A stretch of DNA of 64,000 bases. Origin: Nitrosopumilus sp. (GTDB lineage: Archaea > Thermoproteota > Nitrososphaeria > Nitrososphaerales > Nitrosopumilaceae). A program made the position numbers and the translations under genes. Below the pieces are notes generated by a model. The model was given only the letters and a program-made list of their open reading frames with translations, had not been told where the DNA came from and ran no database searches. The stretch covers positions 928,001-992,000 of the forward strand of contig OZ240211.1 of assembly GCA_965197525.1 (NCBI GenBank), written 5' to 3'. How positions within the stretch are numbered: position 1 is the stretch's first letter; every line of letters begins with the position of its first letter. Below are positions 7,705-26,573 of this stretch, piece by piece.

Positions 7705-9067
7705 AACATTGTTTCCTAATTATCACCAACCACGCCTAACTAATCCAAAATCAGATCAGATTAGGCATAGAACAACTGAATTTGAACGTTGTATCAAACA
7801 CTTTCAATAGAAAACGGTATTGAGCAGAGAGGTGCATTATCAATCAGACTAACAATCATGACCAAAAACACATCCTCTCCAGACAAACTAGGCAAGCATG
7901 GTACTAAAAAATCTTCCAGTTCAAACGAATGCAGGCTCCAGTATGATAACCGCAAATACATAGATCGCGGCAAGTTGTTTATGCTTCAGATAAACGAGGA
8001 GCTCATGGTGCAGGGGCTTGAGAAGATGAACTGTGGAAAGGTAGGCCACCCGTTTACATTCTCAAACGCGTGCGTTGCAGCAGCTGTTCTGTTCCGAAAC
8101 GCCACCGGTATCCCATACAGACAGTTGGAGGGTGTGGCAGAGGCAATCGTCGGCAAGGAAAATGCGCCTACATACTCTGCATTTCAGAAAAGGATGACAA
8201 AACTCAACTGTACAATAGATGACAACGGTAGCGGTAACACTGCCGCTGCATGGTTTACAGACGGCAAAACGAGAACCGAGATAAGCCTGTTTGCGTTTGA
8301 TTCAACTGGGCTCAAGCCTACAAACCGCGGCGACTGGATGGCAGAAAAATGGGGAGTGAGGCGCGGATTCATAAAACTGCATGTCGGTGTAGATGCTAAA
8401 ACCAAGAAGATCTATGCAGTGGTCATAACTGACGACAAGTGTGGAGATTCCCCGCAGTTTGAAGAACTAGTGGAACAAGCTTTTGCAAACGCAGAAAAAT
8501 CACCAAACGTGGAGATGTCTGCCGATACCAAGGTTGCAGCCGATGGTGCGTATGATACACGAGATATTTACAACTACTGCAACAAAAACGAGATTAAACC
8601 ACTGATTCCGGTTCGCATTAATTTTGCTGGAAACGCAAACGGATGCATGTCTCGTAAGAAGGCTGGGTTCGAGCAGCTTGGCAGTTTTGAGCATATAGAT
8701 AAAAAGTCAGAACACAAGTTTGCAGATCTTACGCGCAAGGAAAAGAAGGAACGGCAGAATATGTGGCGCAGGGAATCAGGATACAACGACAGGTGGACAG
8801 TAGAGACTGCGTTCTCTACGTTCAAGCGGGTATTAGGGGAGTCTATAATGGCACGAAAATGGGAAAACGTCAAGACGGAGATATACGGAAAGGTGTGTTT
8901 GTACAATCAGATGATCGATACGGCAATTGAGAACGGATACGGCACGCCAAAGATAGTGTATCAGTCTAAAACCCGCCACAAAGACCGCAGTGTAGGAGGA
9001 AAGGCAATGACATAAGCAAAATCACCCAGATGGTGGTCTGTGTTGCATGTAATTAGGAAACAGAGTT
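7705..9067 (+). mobile_element. IS5-family element with intact transposase
   Basis: TIR AACATTGTTTCCTAATTA / rc AACTCTGTTTCCTAATTA; 8-bp TSD AACTGTTA at 7697-7704 and 9068-9075. Confidence 0.9.
7789..9015 (+). CDS. IS5-family DDE transposase (true start may be a downstream ATG)
   Basis: Motifs FDSTGLK, FIKLHVGVD, ADGAYD, RW.VETAFS.FK. Confidence 0.9.
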   Translation: MYQTLSIENGIEQRGALSIRLTIMTKNTSSPDKLGKHGTKKSSSSNECRLQYDNRKYIDRGKLFMLQINEELMVQGLEKMNCGKVGHPFTFSNACVAAAVLFRNATGIPYRQLEGVAEAIVGKENAPTYSAFQKRMTKLNCTIDDNGSGNTAAAWFTDGKTRTEISLFAFDSTGLKPTNRGDWMAEKWGVRRGFIKLHVGVDAKTKKIYAVVITDDKCGDSPQFEELVEQAFANAEKSPNVEMSADTKVAADGAYDTRDIYNYCNKNEIKPLIPVRINFAGNANGCMSRKKAGFEQLGSFEHIDKKSEHKFADLTRKEKKERQNMWRRESGYNDRWTVETAFSTFKRVLGESIMARKWENVKTEIYGKVCLYNQMIDTAIENGYGTPKIVYQSKTRHKDRSVGGKAMT

Positions 9068-15782: not shown

Positions 15783-15944
15783 TAAAAAATTGCGTTTGTG
15801 GGAATTTAAAGAGTAGGAAATTGTCTAAAAATATCTAAAAATCATGTAAATGTGGCAATTATTGCCATTTACGGTTCTGTGAAGTTATCGGGGGTTATCT
15901 GTCAATCCCTAAAATGTATAAACCTCTAAACCGTAAGATATTCG

Positions 15945-17138
15945 TTGAGAGCGATAAAGTCAATATCACAGAAATATACGCCAAACTCTGATCTAATGGA
16001 TATGATGGCTATATTCACAAAGATGGTCAATCATTGCATCAAGACAGGATTGAAAGAAGACACTCACAATATGAAGAGGTTGTCCATGTTATGTTATCAT
16101 GAATTACGTAATTATGACATCCTGTCTTCATACAAACTAAATGCAATATCACGAGCTGCAGGCATATTATCAAACAGAAAACAATCAATCAAACGAGGTG
16201 TCAGAATAAGAGACCCAATAGTCAAAAATCCCTTTATGACAAACTGTTACGGTATACAACACAGCGGTGCACTATTAACAATCCCATACAAGAAACATAA
16301 CCCAATCAACATTTTACTCAACGTTCACACCCAAAAAATCCTATCTGATCCCGCCTTGACGGTGCGCTCGTTTTCATTGACTGCTCTGAACATCAGTCTT
16401 TGTGTTTCAAAAACAGTACAAGAGATAGAGTGCACCAATCAAGTGGGAATAGACAGAAACCTAAGAAATGTGACGTGTGGGAACAAGCAAGAGGTGACAG
16501 TCTACAAGACAAACAAACTGTTATCCATAAAGGAGAACACAATACACGCTAGGGCAGGATTCCACAGAAATGATCGCAGAAAGAAAGGTCAATTCTGGAA
16601 ACAAAGACAGAGACGAATGAGCAATAGAACAAAGCAGTACATCCACAGAATCTCAAAGGATATGGTATACAACGCAGTCAAAAACAAGACTGCAATCGTC
16701 ATGGAAAACCTGAAAGGAATAAGAAAATTGTACCGAAAAGGAAACAGTCAAGGTAACAAGTACAGGCGTAGATTGAACGGGTGGCAATTCTACGAGTTAC
16801 AACGCCAAATAGAATACAAAGCCCAATGGGTAGGGCTGCCTCCAGTCAAGACAGTAGACCCAGGAAACACGAGCACGCAGTGTCCACGATGCGGAAAGAG
16901 ACTCCAAGAGGACATGCAACAACATCGTAAAATGTCGTGTAATAATTGCGGTTTGTTTATGGACAGGGATATTATTGCTGCCATGAACATATCACGCAAG
17001 CTGCCCCCTAGGTTTAGGGGTAGTAGAGATGACATAGATGAAGCGCAGTCCGGCACTTTTGAGCAGGCGATGACGGAACCCGGCACACCATTGGTAATCC
17101 GAATAGTCGATATGTCAAAGTCAAGTTATAGGGGTTAA
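15945..17138 (+). CDS. tnpB: TnpB RNA-guided nuclease, RuvC catalytic motifs intact
   Basis: RuvC-I GIDRN, RuvC-II IVMENL, Zn finger CPRCG..CNNCG, RuvC-III DRD..AA.NI. Confidence 0.93.
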   Translation: MRAIKSISQKYTPNSDLMDMMAIFTKMVNHCIKTGLKEDTHNMKRLSMLCYHELRNYDILSSYKLNAISRAAGILSNRKQSIKRGVRIRDPIVKNPFMTNCYGIQHSGALLTIPYKKHNPINILLNVHTQKILSDPALTVRSFSLTALNISLCVSKTVQEIECTNQVGIDRNLRNVTCGNKQEVTVYKTNKLLSIKENTIHARAGFHRNDRRKKGQFWKQRQRRMSNRTKQYIHRISKDMVYNAVKNKTAIVMENLKGIRKLYRKGNSQGNKYRRRLNGWQFYELQRQIEYKAQWVGLPPVKTVDPGNTSTQCPRCGKRLQEDMQQHRKMSCNNCGLFMDRDIIAAMNISRKLPPRFRGSRDDIDEAQSGTFEQAMTEPGTPLVIRIVDMSKSSYRG

Positions 17139-17140
17139 CT
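16985..17140 (+). ncRNA. Predicted omegaRNA overlapping the tnpB 3' end (boundaries approximate)
   Basis: By analogy to characterised TnpBs; hairpin CCCCTA-GGTT-TAGGGG (17005-17020); similarity to the second tnpB element breaks down just after GTCGATATGTCAAAGTC (17106-17122). Confidence 0.45.
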
Positions 17141-17164
17141 CCCGATAACTTCACAGAACCCCAT

Positions 17165-17986
17165 TTACGTACCAATAGTGATATCATCTGTGCAGTATCG
17201 TCTCAGAGTTTCGATTGCAGACAGGATAGCCAGCCTGCTAGTCTTAGGATTTAGAGAATCAGGATAGTTTTCAATGGTAAAAATCATCGCACCAAATTTG
17301 CCTTTAGCCTGTATATGATGAGTATTTTTTGTAGAATCCGGATCTGCTACTATCTTTACAAACGTCTTTTCACTGCCAATTCCAGATAGTGATAATAGTG
17401 CTGCAACGTTAATGTTGGCAGGAAACAAATGTACTGCCTCTTTGGCAGCACCCTGAAAGATTGTCGTTGGTGTAGATATAGAGTCCAAGTCCATAGGACA
17501 TTTCTCAAAGAACTTTGCACCTTTAAGAGAACGAGGATGTTTGGTAGTGGTTATTGACAAAGTCTCCAGCTCTGATTTGACTGATTTGATCCCATCCAAT
17601 CCGGCAATAGCCCCTGATGGTAAAATTATTCTTTTCTTAAAATCCCTACAAGCATCAGACAGTATATCATAGACTGACTCGTCTAGCAATGCACCAACGC
17701 TCATAATCATTAGATCACGCTTGTTTTGCAAAACACTTAGTGCAACATCGCGTACGGCATCTTGAGATGCGGCCTCAACTACAATGTTGAGTGGATGGGA
17801 GGACAGTAAATGAGAGTTTTCAACAATTTCAGGTTTGTTTACTAGTTTTTCAACCAAAGACGTAGATGCCTCTTTTGAATCATCATATACATGGGTAATT
17901 ATTGCTGCTGGGATTTTACCAGAGTCAACTGCAAGAGCTATCTGGGTTCCAATTGCACCGCATCCTAAGAGGCCTATTCGTATCAA
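17165..17986 (-). CDS. nadX: L-aspartate dehydrogenase
   Basis: GLLGCGAIG, VEAAS, SVGAL, PSGAIAGLD, FPANINVAA, NPKTSRLA; next to nadA. Confidence 0.93.
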   Translation of the reverse strand: MIRIGLLGCGAIGTQIALAVDSGKIPAAIITHVYDDSKEASTSLVEKLVNKPEIVENSHLLSSHPLNIVVEAASQDAVRDVALSVLQNKRDLMIMSVGALLDESVYDILSDACRDFKKRIILPSGAIAGLDGIKSVKSELETLSITTTKHPRSLKGAKFFEKCPMDLDSISTPTTIFQGAAKEAVHLFPANINVAALLSLSGIGSEKTFVKIVADPDSTKNTHHIQAKGKFGAMIFTIENYPDSLNPKTSRLAILSAIETLRRYCTDDITIGT

Positions 17987-24247: not shown

Positions 24248-25186
24248 CTAGATGACACCACGCAGTATCTGAACAATCTTTTCAGCTATAACGTTTGCTG
24301 CCAGAGATTGGGCTTCTTTTGTTTGGGCACCGATATGAGGTGTTAAAATAACACTGTCTAGTTGGGCTAGTTTATTCCCAATTGCAGGTTCTTTCTCAAA
24401 GACATCAAGAGCTGCACCGCCCAAAGTGCCATTGCTGAGGGCATCATACAAAGCATCTTCATCAACAACACCGCCTCTAGAGGTATTGATGATCTTGGCA
24501 GTGTCCTTCATCATAGACATCTTTTCTGCATTAAGAAGATGGTATGTAGAGTCAAGCAAGGGAACGTGAATTGAGATATAGTCTGAGCTTTGTAATAAAG
24601 TGTCAAGGTCAGCCTTCATTAGACCAACCTCTTTTGAAAATTCGGCATCAATAGGAATCACATCATAGCCAATAATGTTCATATTAAATCCACGGGCAAG
24701 TCTTGCCAATCTCTTTCCGATGTTTCCCAGACCTATAATTCCAAGATACTTTCCGCGCAGTTCAGTTCCCTTTAGTTCTTTTTTGAGCCATTGTTGATTC
24801 CTTATTGCTCTATCGCCCCTTGCAGTCTGTCTTGCAAGTGATAACATTAAACCTAAAACCAGTTCTGCGACAGCATTCATCGCTCCTTCTACAGCGTTAA
24901 TTACACGAATATCTTTTGCGTTAGCTGCTTTTTGATCTATGTTGTCGAGTCCAACCCCAACACGAGCAATAATCTTACAATTATCAGCTTTTTCAATCAT
25001 CTCTTGGGTAATGGTAGTTCTACTACGAACAATTATAATATTAAACTCAGAGATCGTATCGAGAATTTGTGTAGCAGTAATTTCAGGTTGATAAGACACG
25101 CGTAGTCCATTATCTGATAAAATTTTTTCAAGTATTGGATCAACCTGATCACATATCAGAACAGAATCATCAAATCCCATAATCAA
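24248..25186 (-). CDS. serA: D-isomer 2-hydroxyacid dehydrogenase (D-3-phosphoglycerate dehydrogenase-like)
   Basis: ARVGVGLDNID, GIIGLGNIG, INTSRG, LDVF..EP, TPHIGAQT. Confidence 0.85.
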   Translation of the reverse strand: MIMGFDDSVLICDQVDPILEKILSDNGLRVSYQPEITATQILDTISEFNIIIVRSRTTITQEMIEKADNCKIIARVGVGLDNIDQKAANAKDIRVINAVEGAMNAVAELVLGLMLSLARQTARGDRAIRNQQWLKKELKGTELRGKYLGIIGLGNIGKRLARLARGFNMNIIGYDVIPIDAEFSKEVGLMKADLDTLLQSSDYISIHVPLLDSTYHLLNAEKMSMMKDTAKIINTSRGGVVDEDALYDALSNGTLGGAALDVFEKEPAIGNKLAQLDSVILTPHIGAQTKEAQSLAANVIAEKIVQILRGVI

Positions 25187-25215
25187 ATGATGTGTAATAC
25201 AGCATATATTTCATA

Positions 25216-26529
25216 GGTTCTGTTGCATTAACGAGTGGTGTTATTAACAATAACAATCACTCAGAACACTGGACTTTGACATATCGACTATCTGGATTAC
25301 CGGTATACAGGGTTCCATCATAGCTGACTCAAAAACGTCAGACTGCGCTTCACTTATGCCATCTCTACTATCCCTAAACCTAGGGGACAGTTTGCGTGAT
25401 ATGTTCATGGCAGCTATAATGTCTCTGTCCATGAATAATCCGCAATTATTACACGACATTTTACGATGTTGTTGCATGTCCTCTTGGAGTTTCTTTCCGC
25501 ATCTTGGACATTGCGTGCTCGTGCGTTTTGGGTATACAAATTTGACTGGGAGCCCGACCCATTGGGCTTTGTATTCTATTTGGCGTTGTAACTCGTAGAA
25601 TTGCCAGCCATTCAATCTACGTCTATACTTGTTTCCTTGACCATTTCCTTTCTTGTACAATTTTCTTATTCCTTTCAAGTTTTCTAACACAATTACAGCC
25701 TTTTTACTAACGGCATTATCCACAATATCTTTTGATATTTTGTGTATGTATTGTTTTGTTCTATTGGCCATTCTTTGCTGTTTTATCTTCCAGAATTGAC
25801 CTTTTTTTCTATTGTCATTTCTGTGAAAACCAGCTCTTGCATGTATTGTGTTCTCTTTGATAGATAACAGTTTGTTAGTTTTATAGAACATTACTTTTTC
25901 ATCATTCCCACATGTGACATTTCTAAGGTTTCTGTCTATACCTATTACATTAGAGCACTCTATCTCTTCTATTTGTTTTGAGACACAAATACTAATGGTA
26001 CCATCATTTAATGAAAATGAACGTATAGTTAATTCAGGGTCAGATAGAATATTTTGAGTGTGATCATTTAACAGTATATTGATAGGTTGTCTGTTCTTGA
26101 ATGGTATTGTTAGTAGTGCACCATTGTGTTTTATACCGTAACAATTAGTGATAAATGGCTTTTTTATTTTTGGATATTTAACTTTGACGCCACGTTTTAT
26201 TGATTGCCTTCTGTTTGATAGCATGCCGGCAGCCCTTGATATTGCACAGATTTTATATGTTGATAAAATATCGTATTGATTTAACTCATGATAACACAGA
26301 TAGGACAACCGTTTCATATTGCACACATCTTCTTTTAGTCCTATTCTAATGGAAAGGTTTACCATTTCTATGAATGTATCCATCAACTCTTTTAGTTCAG
26401 AGTTTGGCGTATGCTTTTGTGTTATTGATTTTATGGCTTGCACGTTATAAATTACAAGGTTTGTTTTTAATAAAAGTGCTTTTTTTATTTATTTGGTTCT
26501 ATTTTACCACTAGTGAATGCAACAGAGCC
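25216..26529 (-). mobile_element. TIR/TSD-bounded non-autonomous element carrying only tnpB (element B, 1314 bp)
   Basis: TIR GGTTCTGTTGCATTAACGAGTGGT / rc GGCTCTGTTGCATTCACTAGTGGT (21/24); 8-bp TSD ATTTCATA at 25208-25215 and 26530-26537. Confidence 0.92.
25244..26443 (-). CDS. tnpB: TnpB RNA-guided nuclease, RuvC catalytic motifs intact
   Basis: GIDRN, IVLENL, CPRCG..CNNCG, DRD..AA.NI; homologous along its whole length to 15945-17138. Confidence 0.93.
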   Translation of the reverse strand: MQAIKSITQKHTPNSELKELMDTFIEMVNLSIRIGLKEDVCNMKRLSYLCYHELNQYDILSTYKICAISRAAGMLSNRRQSIKRGVKVKYPKIKKPFITNCYGIKHNGALLTIPFKNRQPINILLNDHTQNILSDPELTIRSFSLNDGTISICVSKQIEEIECSNVIGIDRNLRNVTCGNDEKVMFYKTNKLLSIKENTIHARAGFHRNDNRKKGQFWKIKQQRMANRTKQYIHKISKDIVDNAVSKKAVIVLENLKGIRKLYKKGNGQGNKYRRRLNGWQFYELQRQIEYKAQWVGLPVKFVYPKRTSTQCPRCGKKLQEDMQQHRKMSCNNCGLFMDRDIIAAMNISRKLSPRFRDSRDGISEAQSDVFESAMMEPCIPVIQIVDMSKSSVLSDCYC

Positions 26530-26573
26530 ATTTCATACAAAATAATAAAAAAGAAAAAAAGATGTTTATACAA

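What the first reader, a model, noticed from the sequence alone, without database searches (positions are those of the whole stretch)
25208..26537. Second, diverged tnpB with a different TIR of the same type (element B)
Seen: 24-bp TIRs (21/24) and an 8-bp TSD ATTTCATA around a second intact tnpB. Its TIR shares only the first 8 nt with element A, and the proteins differ substantially in the N-terminal half. Established, from memory: GGTTCTGTTGCA and GGCTCTGTTGCA match the termini of IS6-family elements such as IS257/IS1216 and IS6100, which make 8-bp duplications. Inference: two diverged examples with the same layout argue for a persistent TIR-tnpB lineage, or repeated targeting of IS6-like ends, rather than one accident.
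Basis: partly seen in the sequence, partly recalled or inferred. Interest (0 to 1): 0.87.

Follow-up and report, generated by a model that had tools for sequence, protein, structure and literature searches.

The report
TnpB guide-RNA element on IS6-like ends
This is one of about fifty copies, in a Nitrosopumilus archaeon, of a small jumping element that carries only the RNA-guided nuclease TnpB and its guide RNA between the inverted ends of an IS6-like transposon; every datable insertion sits just after the same three-letter motif, which suggests the nuclease is set to cut the still-empty copy of its own insertion site.

Summary
Window 25216-26529 is a 1,314-bp element with 24-nt inverted ends (21/24), an exact 8-bp duplication ATTTCATA, and one intact gene, tnpB, on the minus strand. 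Relatives that lack the element show the uninterrupted site.

It is not an accident. The 2.21-Mb genome holds 33 intact copies and about 50 guide-RNA scaffolds in at least 8 subfamilies. Each subfamily has its own end variant, and the variants track the TnpB tree. TnpB is under strong purifying selection (dN/dS 0.05-0.11). The genome has no Y1 or serine TnpA. It does have IS6-like DDE transposases whose elements carry the same GGTTCTGT ends and 8-bp duplications.

New here: in tnpB orientation, the three bases just 5' of the left duplication are W-T-R in 50 of 50 independent insertions (own genome, other genomes, metagenomes). The mirror position shows it in 7 of 50, and DDE-only relatives on 1 of 18 sides. 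That is where a TAM must lie if the guide is read from the right end into the flank. The guide would then start with the duplicated 8 bases and match only the empty site.

The kind is published (DDE-associated TnpB, Altae-Tran 2023). This scan has also noted IS6-like TnpB elements before, in this genome and in at least 11 others. The IS6-like partner, the flank motif and the guide-RNA-only miniatures are new variants.

The parts
25196..25215 (-). Predicted guide template: the flank just past the right end in tnpB orientation. Its first 8 nt (25208-25215) are the right-hand copy of the TSD. Read on the minus strand it begins TATGAAATATATGCTG.
   Evidence: This is an inference from the layout. 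The TSD copy is exact. One RNA contig of another copy stops 16 nt past this end, which is only a weak hint.
25216..25239 (-). Right-end TIR in tnpB orientation. On the plus strand it reads GGTTCTGTTGCATTAACGAGTGGT.
   Evidence: (I1). It matches IS6-family IR starts.
25222..25272 (-). Terminal hairpin. The segment after the conserved scaffold core pairs with the inner part of the right TIR and leaves the last 6 nt (AGAACC) free before the flank.
   Evidence: MFE folds show it in every subfamily although the sequences differ. A 6-nt tail remains in 22 of 32 distinct tails.
25273..25394 (-). Core of the guide-RNA (omega-RNA) scaffold, lying inside the 3' end of the tnpB ORF.
   Evidence: The covariance model R1 matches at G000 953273-953394, minus strand, 145.6 bits. 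Of 33 pairs, 13 show changes on both sides and 98.3% of cells are paired; 0 of 500 shuffles reach this, and slid controls give 1-4 pairs. dS falls about threefold here.
25244..26443 (-). tnpB, 399 aa, intact RuvC D170/E254/D341 and zinc finger.
   Evidence: dN/dS against other subfamilies is 0.05-0.11.
26444..26505 (-). A/T-rich leader between the left TIR and the tnpB start. It presumably holds the promoter.
   Evidence: Sequence only. Not tested.
26506..26529 (-). Left-end TIR in tnpB orientation. Read inward it is GGCTCTGTTGCATTCACTAGTGGT.
   Evidence: (I1).
26530..26537 (-). Left-hand copy of the 8-bp TSD (TATGAAAT on the minus strand).
   Evidence: The empty site is seen in relatives.
26538..26540 (-). 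TTG on the minus strand: this copy's instance of the invariant W-T-R motif, the predicted TAM.
   Evidence: 50 of 50 insertions. The homologous position in the uninterrupted relative G066 reads TTA.
15862..17168 (+). Element A, a sister subfamily. TTG lies at 15862-15864, the TSD CCATTTAC at 15865-15872 and 17161-17168, the element at 15873-17160 and tnpB at 15945-17138.

Best explanation
Element B is a non-autonomous DNA transposon of an IS6-like (DDE) type whose only cargo is a working OMEGA module: TnpB plus its guide-RNA scaffold.

Shown:
- It has 24-nt inverted ends and an 8-bp target duplication, and relatives show the empty site.
- tnpB is intact and under purifying selection.
- A structured RNA with compensatory changes overlaps the gene's 3' end.
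- The genome holds about 50 such modules in at least 8 co-diverging subfamilies. They include 208-497-bp miniatures that keep only the two ends and the RNA part.
- IS6-like SWIM/zinc-ribbon DDE transposases sit in elements with the same termini and the same 8-bp duplications.
- The genome has no Y1 or serine TnpA.

Inferred:
- The DDE transposases move these elements in trans.
- The RNA is read through the right end into the flank. The guide is then the right copy of the duplication plus the DNA beyond it.
- The invariant W-T-R just 5' of the left copy is the TAM.
- If so, TnpB with this guide recognises TAM + 8 bp + flank, a sequence that exists only in an allele without the element. The occupied left junction offers the TAM but only 8 matching bases. 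The right junction is preceded by ACC, not a TAM.
- Cutting the empty allele and repairing it from an occupied copy would restore or spread the element (homing, or drive).

This explains why TnpB is kept. It does not yet explain whether the motif is imposed at integration or by survival afterwards.
For: - Anatomy. Empty site in relatives.
- TnpB identity and catalytic residues.
- Copy number, ends and duplications. Of the 33 full copies, 22 have perfect 8-bp TSDs and 2 have 7/8.
- Purifying selection, and lower dS over the RNA.
- RNA structure: 17 of 28 pairs with double changes; 13 of 33 pairs, 0 of 500 shuffles, slid controls 1-4. The model finds 50 strong copies in the genome.
- Miniatures keep the left end plus the last 300-340 nt (one only about 95 nt), and most are only about 80-86% identical to any full copy, so they are old lineages.
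- Partner transposase: PF13610 scores above its cut-off, and the best NCBIfam hit is the IS6 family, aligned end to end. One intact 1,970-bp element has 24/24 TIRs and the TSD CTATTGTG. Its ends match subfamily E tnpB elements at 20 of 22 positions. The family is found in 27 of 81 genomes of the genus.
- No PF01797 or PF00239 in the 99%-complete single-contig genome.
- Flank motif: T at -10 and R at -9 in 50 of 50 insertions, W at -11 in 48 of 50. The mirror side shows it in 7 of 50. Background is 0.146, binomial p about 1e-42. It also holds in guide-RNA-only miniatures and in metagenome relatives down to about 45% TnpB identity. DDE-only elements with TSDs show it on 1 of 18 sides, and none of them holds tnpB.
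Against: - Nothing here shows cleavage, the RNA's 3' end or the TAM directly.
- Scaffold sequence conservation stops 35-100 nt before the terminus. The claim that the RNA runs to the end rests on the terminal hairpin and on the flank motif.
- IS6-family elements are thought to move by copying without excision (my knowledge of IS26). That would leave no empty donor site for restorative homing. Only spread to unoccupied homologous chromosomes would then pay, and the ploidy and DNA exchange of this archaeon are unknown.
- Random insertion would give the motif about 15% of the time. Fifty of fifty therefore needs very strong selection or coupling at integration, and neither is demonstrated.
- The DDE-only control uses transposases that are only 28-70% identical to one another. 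Only two of those copies (four sides) share near-identical ends with a tnpB subfamily.
- Two more distant TnpB elements with IS6-like ends (34-36% identity) have TAT and TTT at this position (strand-corrected).
Confidence: 0.7

Rival explanations
1. W-T-R is simply the target preference of the transposase that moves these elements, with no link to TnpB. The orientation would come from asymmetric ends, because the right end carries a second, internal TIR-like copy.
For: In every subfamily the right end has an internal segment that mirrors the TIR interior. This could be an extra transposase-binding site that tells right from left. In IS605 and IS607 the transposase's own target motif doubles as the TAM (review PMC13565253), so a transposase preference and a TAM need not exclude each other.
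Against: DDE-only IS6-like elements with intact TSDs show the motif on 1 of 18 sides. The two copies whose ends are near-identical to tnpB subfamily E show ACA/CAA and TGA/ATT. The motif follows the orientation of the RNA remnant even in miniatures without tnpB. It is constant across end variants that differ at most inner positions.
Confidence: 0.17
2. The guide is hard-wired inside the element. The scaffold would end at ...GTCAAAGTC, and the next 16-20 nt, which resemble the element's own TIR interior, would be the guide. TnpB would then cut the element's ends and act as part of the transposition machinery.
For: Scaffold conservation stops at that point. The following segment tracks each subfamily's TIR interior. 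Other first-stage notes on this genome proposed this reading.
Against: The match to the TIR has bulges, mismatches and positions that pair only as G-U, especially in subfamily B. A hairpin tolerates these, but a TnpB seed would not. The bases 5' of the would-be target in the TIR differ between subfamilies (GTGAA, GTTGC, GTTGG, GTGTA...), although the TnpBs are 76% or more identical, so there is no common TAM. This reading also gives no reason for the flank motif.
Confidence: 0.1
3. Chance arrangement or decaying relic: a stand-alone IS1341-type tnpB that happens to lie between two IS6-type ends, with no life as a unit.
For: None beyond the fact that tnpB-only elements are common.
Against: There are 33 intact copies with unit-length ends and different TSDs. 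Ends and protein are congruent on the tree. Selection is purifying. The same layout occurs in other genomes and in metagenomes.
Confidence: 0.02

Closest known systems
DDE-transposase-associated TnpB branches (DDE-1 to DDE-6) and solo TnpBs with the same ends (Altae-Tran et al. 2023, PNAS, PMC10691335)
   Same: TnpB sits between inverted terminal repeats, with its 3' end within 250 bp of the transposon end. Solo TnpBs are flanked by ends like those of transposase-bearing elements, implying mobilisation in trans.
   Different: The DDE partners named in that paper and in a 2026 review are IS630, ISL2 and IS1031. An IS6-like partner is not listed, and I found no paper joining TnpB with IS6 or with Nitrosopumilus. 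I found no report of a TAM-like motif outside an 8-bp TSD, or of guide-RNA-only miniatures. Their supplementary tables were not available to me, so this clade may be one of their branches.
IS6 family (IS26, IS257/IS431, IS1216, IS6100)
   Same: The ends begin GG(T/C)TCTGTTGCA and the duplications are 8 bp. The partner transposase's best family hit is IS6, over the whole model.
   Different: The partner transposase is 374-383 aa, with an added SWIM domain and an IS1/IS1595-type zinc ribbon. It scores just under NCBIfam's IS6 cut-off (103-121 against 125). The autonomous elements are about 2-3.3 kb and often carry extra genes. Classical IS6 elements do not carry tnpB.
IS200/IS605 tnpB-only elements (IS1341 group) and ISDra2-type TnpB homing
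   Same: The nuclease family is the same, with the canonical RuvC layout. The guide RNA overlaps the gene's 3' end. The predicted logic is also the same: a guide from the right flank and a TAM at the left flank together spell the empty site (review PMC13565253).
   Different: There are no subterminal hairpin ends and no Y1 or serine TnpA anywhere in the genome. TIRs and TSDs are present. Because the target is duplicated, the TAM sits 8 bp away from the left end and the guide would begin with the duplicated bases.
Fanzor (eukaryotic TnpB) inside DDE transposons
   Same: An RNA-guided nuclease is carried as cargo of TIR/TSD transposons, with the RNA running towards the TIR.
   Different: In Fanzors the short, fixed 5' TSD (TA, TTAA) is read as part of the TAM (review PMC13565253). 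Here the TSD is 8 bp of any sequence and the conserved motif lies outside it. The catalytic glutamate is at the canonical TnpB position, not the Fanzor-type rearranged one (E254, 58 residues before the zinc finger).

Membership tests
TnpB (RNA-guided nuclease, OMEGA) | RuvC-I/II/III acidic residues and a C4 zinc finger; a match to curated TnpB models | tested here: met
   NF040570 scores 136.5 bits (cut-off 100) and PF07282 3.6e-21. D170, E254, D341, C312/C315/C331/C334 are invariant in relatives.
TnpB (RNA-guided nuclease, OMEGA) | A structured guide-RNA scaffold overlapping the 3' end of the gene | tested here: met
   Covariation: 13 of 33 pairs change on both sides, 98.3% of cells pair, 0 of 500 shuffles reach this. 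dS is depressed over this stretch. Transcription and RNA ends are not shown (one search was inconclusive).
TnpB (RNA-guided nuclease, OMEGA) | TAM-dependent, guide-dependent DNA cleavage | not testable with these tools
   Only the predicted TAM (W-T-R in 50 of 50 insertions) and the predicted guide are given.
IS200/IS605 or IS607 element | No TIRs, no TSD, and mobilisation by a Y1 (HUH) or serine TnpA | tested here: not met
   TIRs and 8-bp TSDs are present. PF01797 and PF00239 are not found in the 99%-complete genome.
IS6 family (the element's ends and its presumed transposase) | Terminal IRs beginning GG(T/C/A)(T/A)CTGTTGCA | tested here: met
   GGTTCTGTTGCA and GGCTCTGTTGCA, compared with the IS6100 and IS431-like IRs in papers. 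Other subfamilies share only GGTTCTGT.
IS6 family (the element's ends and its presumed transposase) | 8-bp target duplication | tested here: met
IS6 family (the element's ends and its presumed transposase) | An IS6-type DDE transposase passing the curated family threshold | tested here: inconclusive
   NF033587 is the best hit and aligns over positions 1-200 of 202, but scores 102.8-120.6 bits against a cut-off of 125. PF13610 scores 42-61 against a cut-off of 27. There is an extra N-terminal SWIM domain and zinc ribbon. No ISfinder comparison was possible.
IS6 family (the element's ends and its presumed transposase) | Replicative, cointegrate-forming transposition | not testable with these tools
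   No test was possible. Eleven of the 33 copies lack matching TSDs. In another genome one pair of copies has swapped TSDs. Both fit recombination between copies as well as they fit any transposition route.
DDE-associated TnpB (Altae-Tran 2023) | TnpB within inverted terminal repeats shared with DDE-transposase elements | tested here: met
   No element holding both genes was found among 9 complete DDE elements.

The most novel reading that the evidence does not exclude
TAM recognition by TnpB, with or without seed pairing over the 8 bp that become the duplication, takes part in choosing the integration site of a DDE transposon. These elements would then be a primitive, CRISPR-free form of nuclease-coupled transposition. 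On this reading the invariant, orientation-specific W-T-R abutting the TSD is imposed at integration and not by later survival.
Probability: 0.15. Interest if true: 0.92.

Novelty: new variant of a known kind. Interest (0 to 1): 0.72.

Why it matters
What TnpB does for a transposon is understood only for elements that excise without a scar (IS605, IS607). A 2026 review calls the pairing with DDE transposons relatively rare and offers only possible reasons for it.

Here a large, active-looking archaeal family shows the pairing with an IS6-like partner. It also gives a sharp, countable signature: every insertion with an intact duplication lies 8 bp downstream of W-T-R, on the tnpB-upstream side only.

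That signature turns an open question into experiments. It predicts the TAM, the guide (which begins with the duplicated bases) and the immunity of occupied sites. It also asks whether the nuclease shapes where a DDE transposon lands or only which insertions persist.

The family supplies dozens of natural, compact (about 400 aa) TnpB variants with a short predicted TAM, plus natural guide-RNA-only elements. It shows as well how a symbiont-type Nitrosopumilus genome came to carry about 50 guide-RNA modules.

Tried and rejected
- RNA evidence. Two sponge metatranscriptome runs hold the element, but only as contigs. Depth is highest over the last 200 nt of the element, yet the DNA runs show the same excess because the repeat is collapsed. 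Nothing can therefore be said about expression level. One RNA contig of another copy stops 16 nt past the right end while DNA contigs run on, and another RNA contig runs more than 200 nt past an A-type end. No RNA 3' end is established.
- Metagenome scans. The first scan, with the single protein, found nothing. The scan with an alignment worked.
- TIR/TSD finder. My first version on metagenome loci rewarded chance 7/8 repeats and gave nonsense. I replaced it with a terminus-anchored search.
- Strand of the terminal hairpin. Counting G-U pairs on the sense and antisense folds did not discriminate.
- Wrong strand. Loci from the genome search are not turned to the match strand. Row X_L040 in alignment A1 and my first flank reading of L040, L042 and L050 were therefore on the wrong strand. 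Corrected, L040 reads TTG and L050 reads ATA, and alignment A3 omits that row.
- An element holding both the DDE gene and tnpB: none among 9 complete DDE elements.
- Supplementary tables of Altae-Tran 2023 are not held, so I could not place this clade among their DDE branches.
- dN/dS for subfamilies F2 and G failed for a trivial parsing reason.
- Structure prediction and complex prediction were not run. They would not have changed the reading.

Full report
**1. The observation**

- The arms 25216-25239 and 26506-26529 are 24 nt and 21/24 complementary.
- ATTTCATA lies directly outside both arms.
- GGYTCTGTTGCA occurs nowhere else in the window.
- Between the arms is one gene on the minus strand (26443..25244, 399 aa). 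It matches curated TnpB models above threshold. It keeps RuvC D170, E254, D341 and the zinc finger.
- In three relatives of the same genus the orthologous spacer is uninterrupted and holds one copy of the duplicated bases. The spacer lies between a 2-hydroxyacid dehydrogenase gene and a multicopper oxidase gene. This is therefore a true insertion with an 8-bp target duplication.

**2. Scale and organism**

The window lies in a single-contig genome of 2.21 Mb with 39.6% G+C. Relatives found by protein are labelled Nitrosopumilus or Thaumarchaeota. Sponge metatranscriptome contigs cover the neighbouring gene with few differences.

The genome holds 33 full-length copies with open tnpB frames, plus fragments. 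A covariance model of the RNA scaffold finds 50 strong copies.
- Nearly all full copies end in GGTTCTGT-type inverted repeats of about 22-25 nt.
- 22 of the 33 have perfect 8-bp duplications and 2 have 7/8, each duplication different.
- Eleven shorter derivatives exist. Nine are 208-497 bp. They keep the left end and the last 300-340 nt, in one case only about 95 nt. Most are only about 80-86% identical to any full copy, so they are lineages of their own.

**3. One unit, long kept**

The copies fall into at least 8 subfamilies, and each has its own inner-TIR sequence. On a maximum-likelihood tree of the 33 proteins, the end types need the minimum possible number of changes, and 0 of 200 shuffles were as low.

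Between subfamilies, the first 270 codons have dS of 0.9-1.5 and dN/dS of 0.05-0.11. Elements A and B of this window are two such subfamilies, 76% identical in protein.

The same layout is found elsewhere:
- in two other genomes of the genus searched as relatives;
- in two Nitrosopumilus-labelled assemblies and a Thaumarchaeota-labelled contig from the public genome collection;
- in 34 of 80 metagenome loci whose TnpB is 41-64% identical.

Congruence by itself is only what co-inheritance gives. It argues against repeated capture, not for any mechanism.

**4. Who moves it**

The 99%-complete genome has no Y1 transposase and no serine recombinase. It has eight matches to the IS6-type DDE domain.
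- The proteins are 374-383 aa.
- Their best NCBIfam hit is the IS6 family, aligned end to end but just under the cut-off.
- They carry an added N-terminal SWIM domain and an IS1/IS1595-type zinc ribbon.
- One element is complete: 1,970 bp, 24/24 TIRs, TSD CTATTGTG. Its ends match tnpB subfamily E at 20 of 22 positions.
- The ends of another DDE element match subfamily B at about 20 of 24 positions.
- The transposase family occurs in 27 of 81 genomes of the genus.
- None of 9 complete DDE elements holds tnpB. Mobilisation in trans is therefore inferred, not shown.

**5. The RNA**

The last third of tnpB is the best-conserved DNA of the element. RNAalifold predicts nested helices there.

On a clean 125-column alignment, 98.3% of cells pair and 13 of 33 pairs change on both sides. 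No shuffle out of 500 reaches this, and sliding the partners by 1-3 columns gives 1-4 such pairs and 26-38% pairing. Some compensatory changes alter the protein (LPPRFRG against LSPRFRD). dS drops about threefold over this stretch.

After the conserved core (...ATATGTCAAAGTC) the sequence differs between subfamilies. In each one it pairs with the inner part of the right TIR, and usually the last 6 nt, AGAACC, stay free. I read this as the terminal stem of the scaffold.

Other first-stage notes on this genome read the same segment as a hard-wired guide against the element's own TIR. The pairing has bulges and G-U positions. The would-be target has no common adjacent motif. That reading also leaves the next finding unexplained.

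**6. The flank motif**

When all copies are oriented by tnpB, the three bases just 5' of the left duplication are W-T-R. I pooled independent insertions with TSDs of 7/8 or better: 29 from this genome and 21 from other genomes and metagenomes.

| Position or control | Result |
|---|---|
| T at -10 | 50 of 50 |
| R at -9 | 50 of 50 |
| W at -11 | 48 of 50 |
| N-T-R at the mirror position beyond the right duplication | 7 of 50 |
| Background frequency | 0.146 |
| Binomial p | about 1e-42 |

- The duplicated 8 bases themselves show no preference.
- The motif follows the orientation of the RNA remnant in the miniatures.
- IS6-like elements that carry only the transposase, also with intact TSDs, show it on 1 of 18 sides. 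The two whose ends are closest to a tnpB subfamily have ACA/CAA and TGA/ATT.
- The three full copies in this genome that lack the motif also lack a matching TSD or an intact left end.

**7. Reading**

A TnpB guide is the DNA just past the right end. The TAM lies 5' of the matching target (review PMC13565253).

In an element that duplicates 8 bp, the empty allele reads [left flank][8 bp][right flank]. A guide read from the right end begins with those 8 bp. Its TAM must therefore be the bases just 5' of the left copy, which is where W-T-R sits.
- The occupied left junction offers the TAM but only 8 matching bases.
- The right junction is preceded by ACC.

For element B the predicted TAM is TTG (26540-26538, minus strand). 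The guide begins TATGAAATATATGCTG.

This extends the homing logic of IS605 and IS607 to a TSD-making transposon. It differs from Fanzors, where the short fixed TSD is part of the TAM.

It does not settle how the motif becomes universal. Three routes remain open: survival of TAM-flanked insertions through homing, a transposase preference that co-evolved with the TAM, or TnpB taking part in site choice. The DDE-only control speaks against a plain transposase preference, but it rests on few closely matched copies.

**8. What is known**

Altae-Tran et al. 2023 (PMC10691335) described six DDE-associated TnpB branches with inverted terminal repeats. They also described solo TnpBs with the same ends. 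A 2026 review names the partners as ISL2, IS630 and IS1031.

I found no paper linking TnpB to IS6-type elements or to Nitrosopumilus.

This scan has already noted TnpB on IS6-like ends in this genome and in at least 11 others, including Asgard, Bathyarchaeia and Nitrososphaera. One note proposed a TSD-seeded guide.
- the count that makes W-T-R a rule;
- the controls;
- the empty site;
- the formal covariation test;
- the guide-RNA-only miniatures;
- the selection figures.

**9. Verdict**

It is a new variant of a published kind. The insertion-site rule is worth an experiment.

Noticed in passing
L199 (G000 699962-703151): A 3,190-bp element with identical 24-nt IS6-like TIRs carries the DDE transposase plus an N6/N4 DNA methylase and an HNH endonuclease, which looks like restriction-modification cargo. 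It has no matching TSD. TnpB is therefore one of several cargo types on these ends.
   Followed up: partly
L086 (G000 1394563-1396016): A 1,454-bp element has subfamily B ends, the TSD TATTTTTC and TTG upstream. It keeps only the first 83 nt and the last 169 nt of a B-type element. The middle is unrelated DNA with a weak IS1595-type zinc-ribbon fragment fused in frame to the tnpB tail.
   Followed up: partly
L062 and L064 (Nitrosopumilus MAG OZ245003.1, about 1.45 and 1.33 Mb): Two inverted copies carry swapped 8-mers (TTATGTTA/TAGAAACT and TAGAAACT/TTATGTTA). This fits an inversion of about 125 kb by recombination between copies. In the window's own genome 11 of 33 copies also lack matching TSDs.
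   Followed up: partly
window 25186-25216: Element B's right end lies 30 nt upstream of the start of the 2-hydroxyacid dehydrogenase gene (24248-25186, minus strand), and tnpB reads towards it. Read-through from the element could affect that gene.
   Followed up: no
flanks of all copies, positions -16 to -14 and -20: A weaker A-rich or A/T-rich preference lies 3-9 nt upstream of W-T-R (A in 25-28 of 50 at -16 to -14). It may be part of an extended TAM or just intergenic composition.
   Followed up: no
window 25216 (run X5): A 104-nt contig from a sponge metatranscriptome covers the last 88 nt of the element and stops 16 nt into a different flank. DNA contigs at the same junction run on for about 145 nt. 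A 16-nt guide would fit this, but it is one contig only.
   Followed up: partly
G000 479387 and 738455: Two closely related subfamily A copies have TSDs that share their first five bases (CTATCAAC, CTATCGGT). This may be chance, at roughly 6% among 66 pairs.
   Followed up: no
window 7789-9015: An unrelated transposase gene (408 aa; DDE_Tnp_1 PF01609 and PF13737, IS4/IS5-type) lies in the same window.
   Followed up: no
L087 (G000 883991-884841): An 851-bp element has perfect 24-nt IS6-like TIRs and the TSD TATTACTG, but no tnpB, no RNA scaffold and no recognisable gene. One orientation has TTA at the motif position.
   Followed up: partly
DDE-only elements L092, L094, L104-L107, L112, L118: Autonomous IS6-like elements in other genomes of the genus are 2.35-3.3 kb. 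They carry a second ORF of about 100-220 aa, which I did not characterise, next to the transposase.
   Followed up: no
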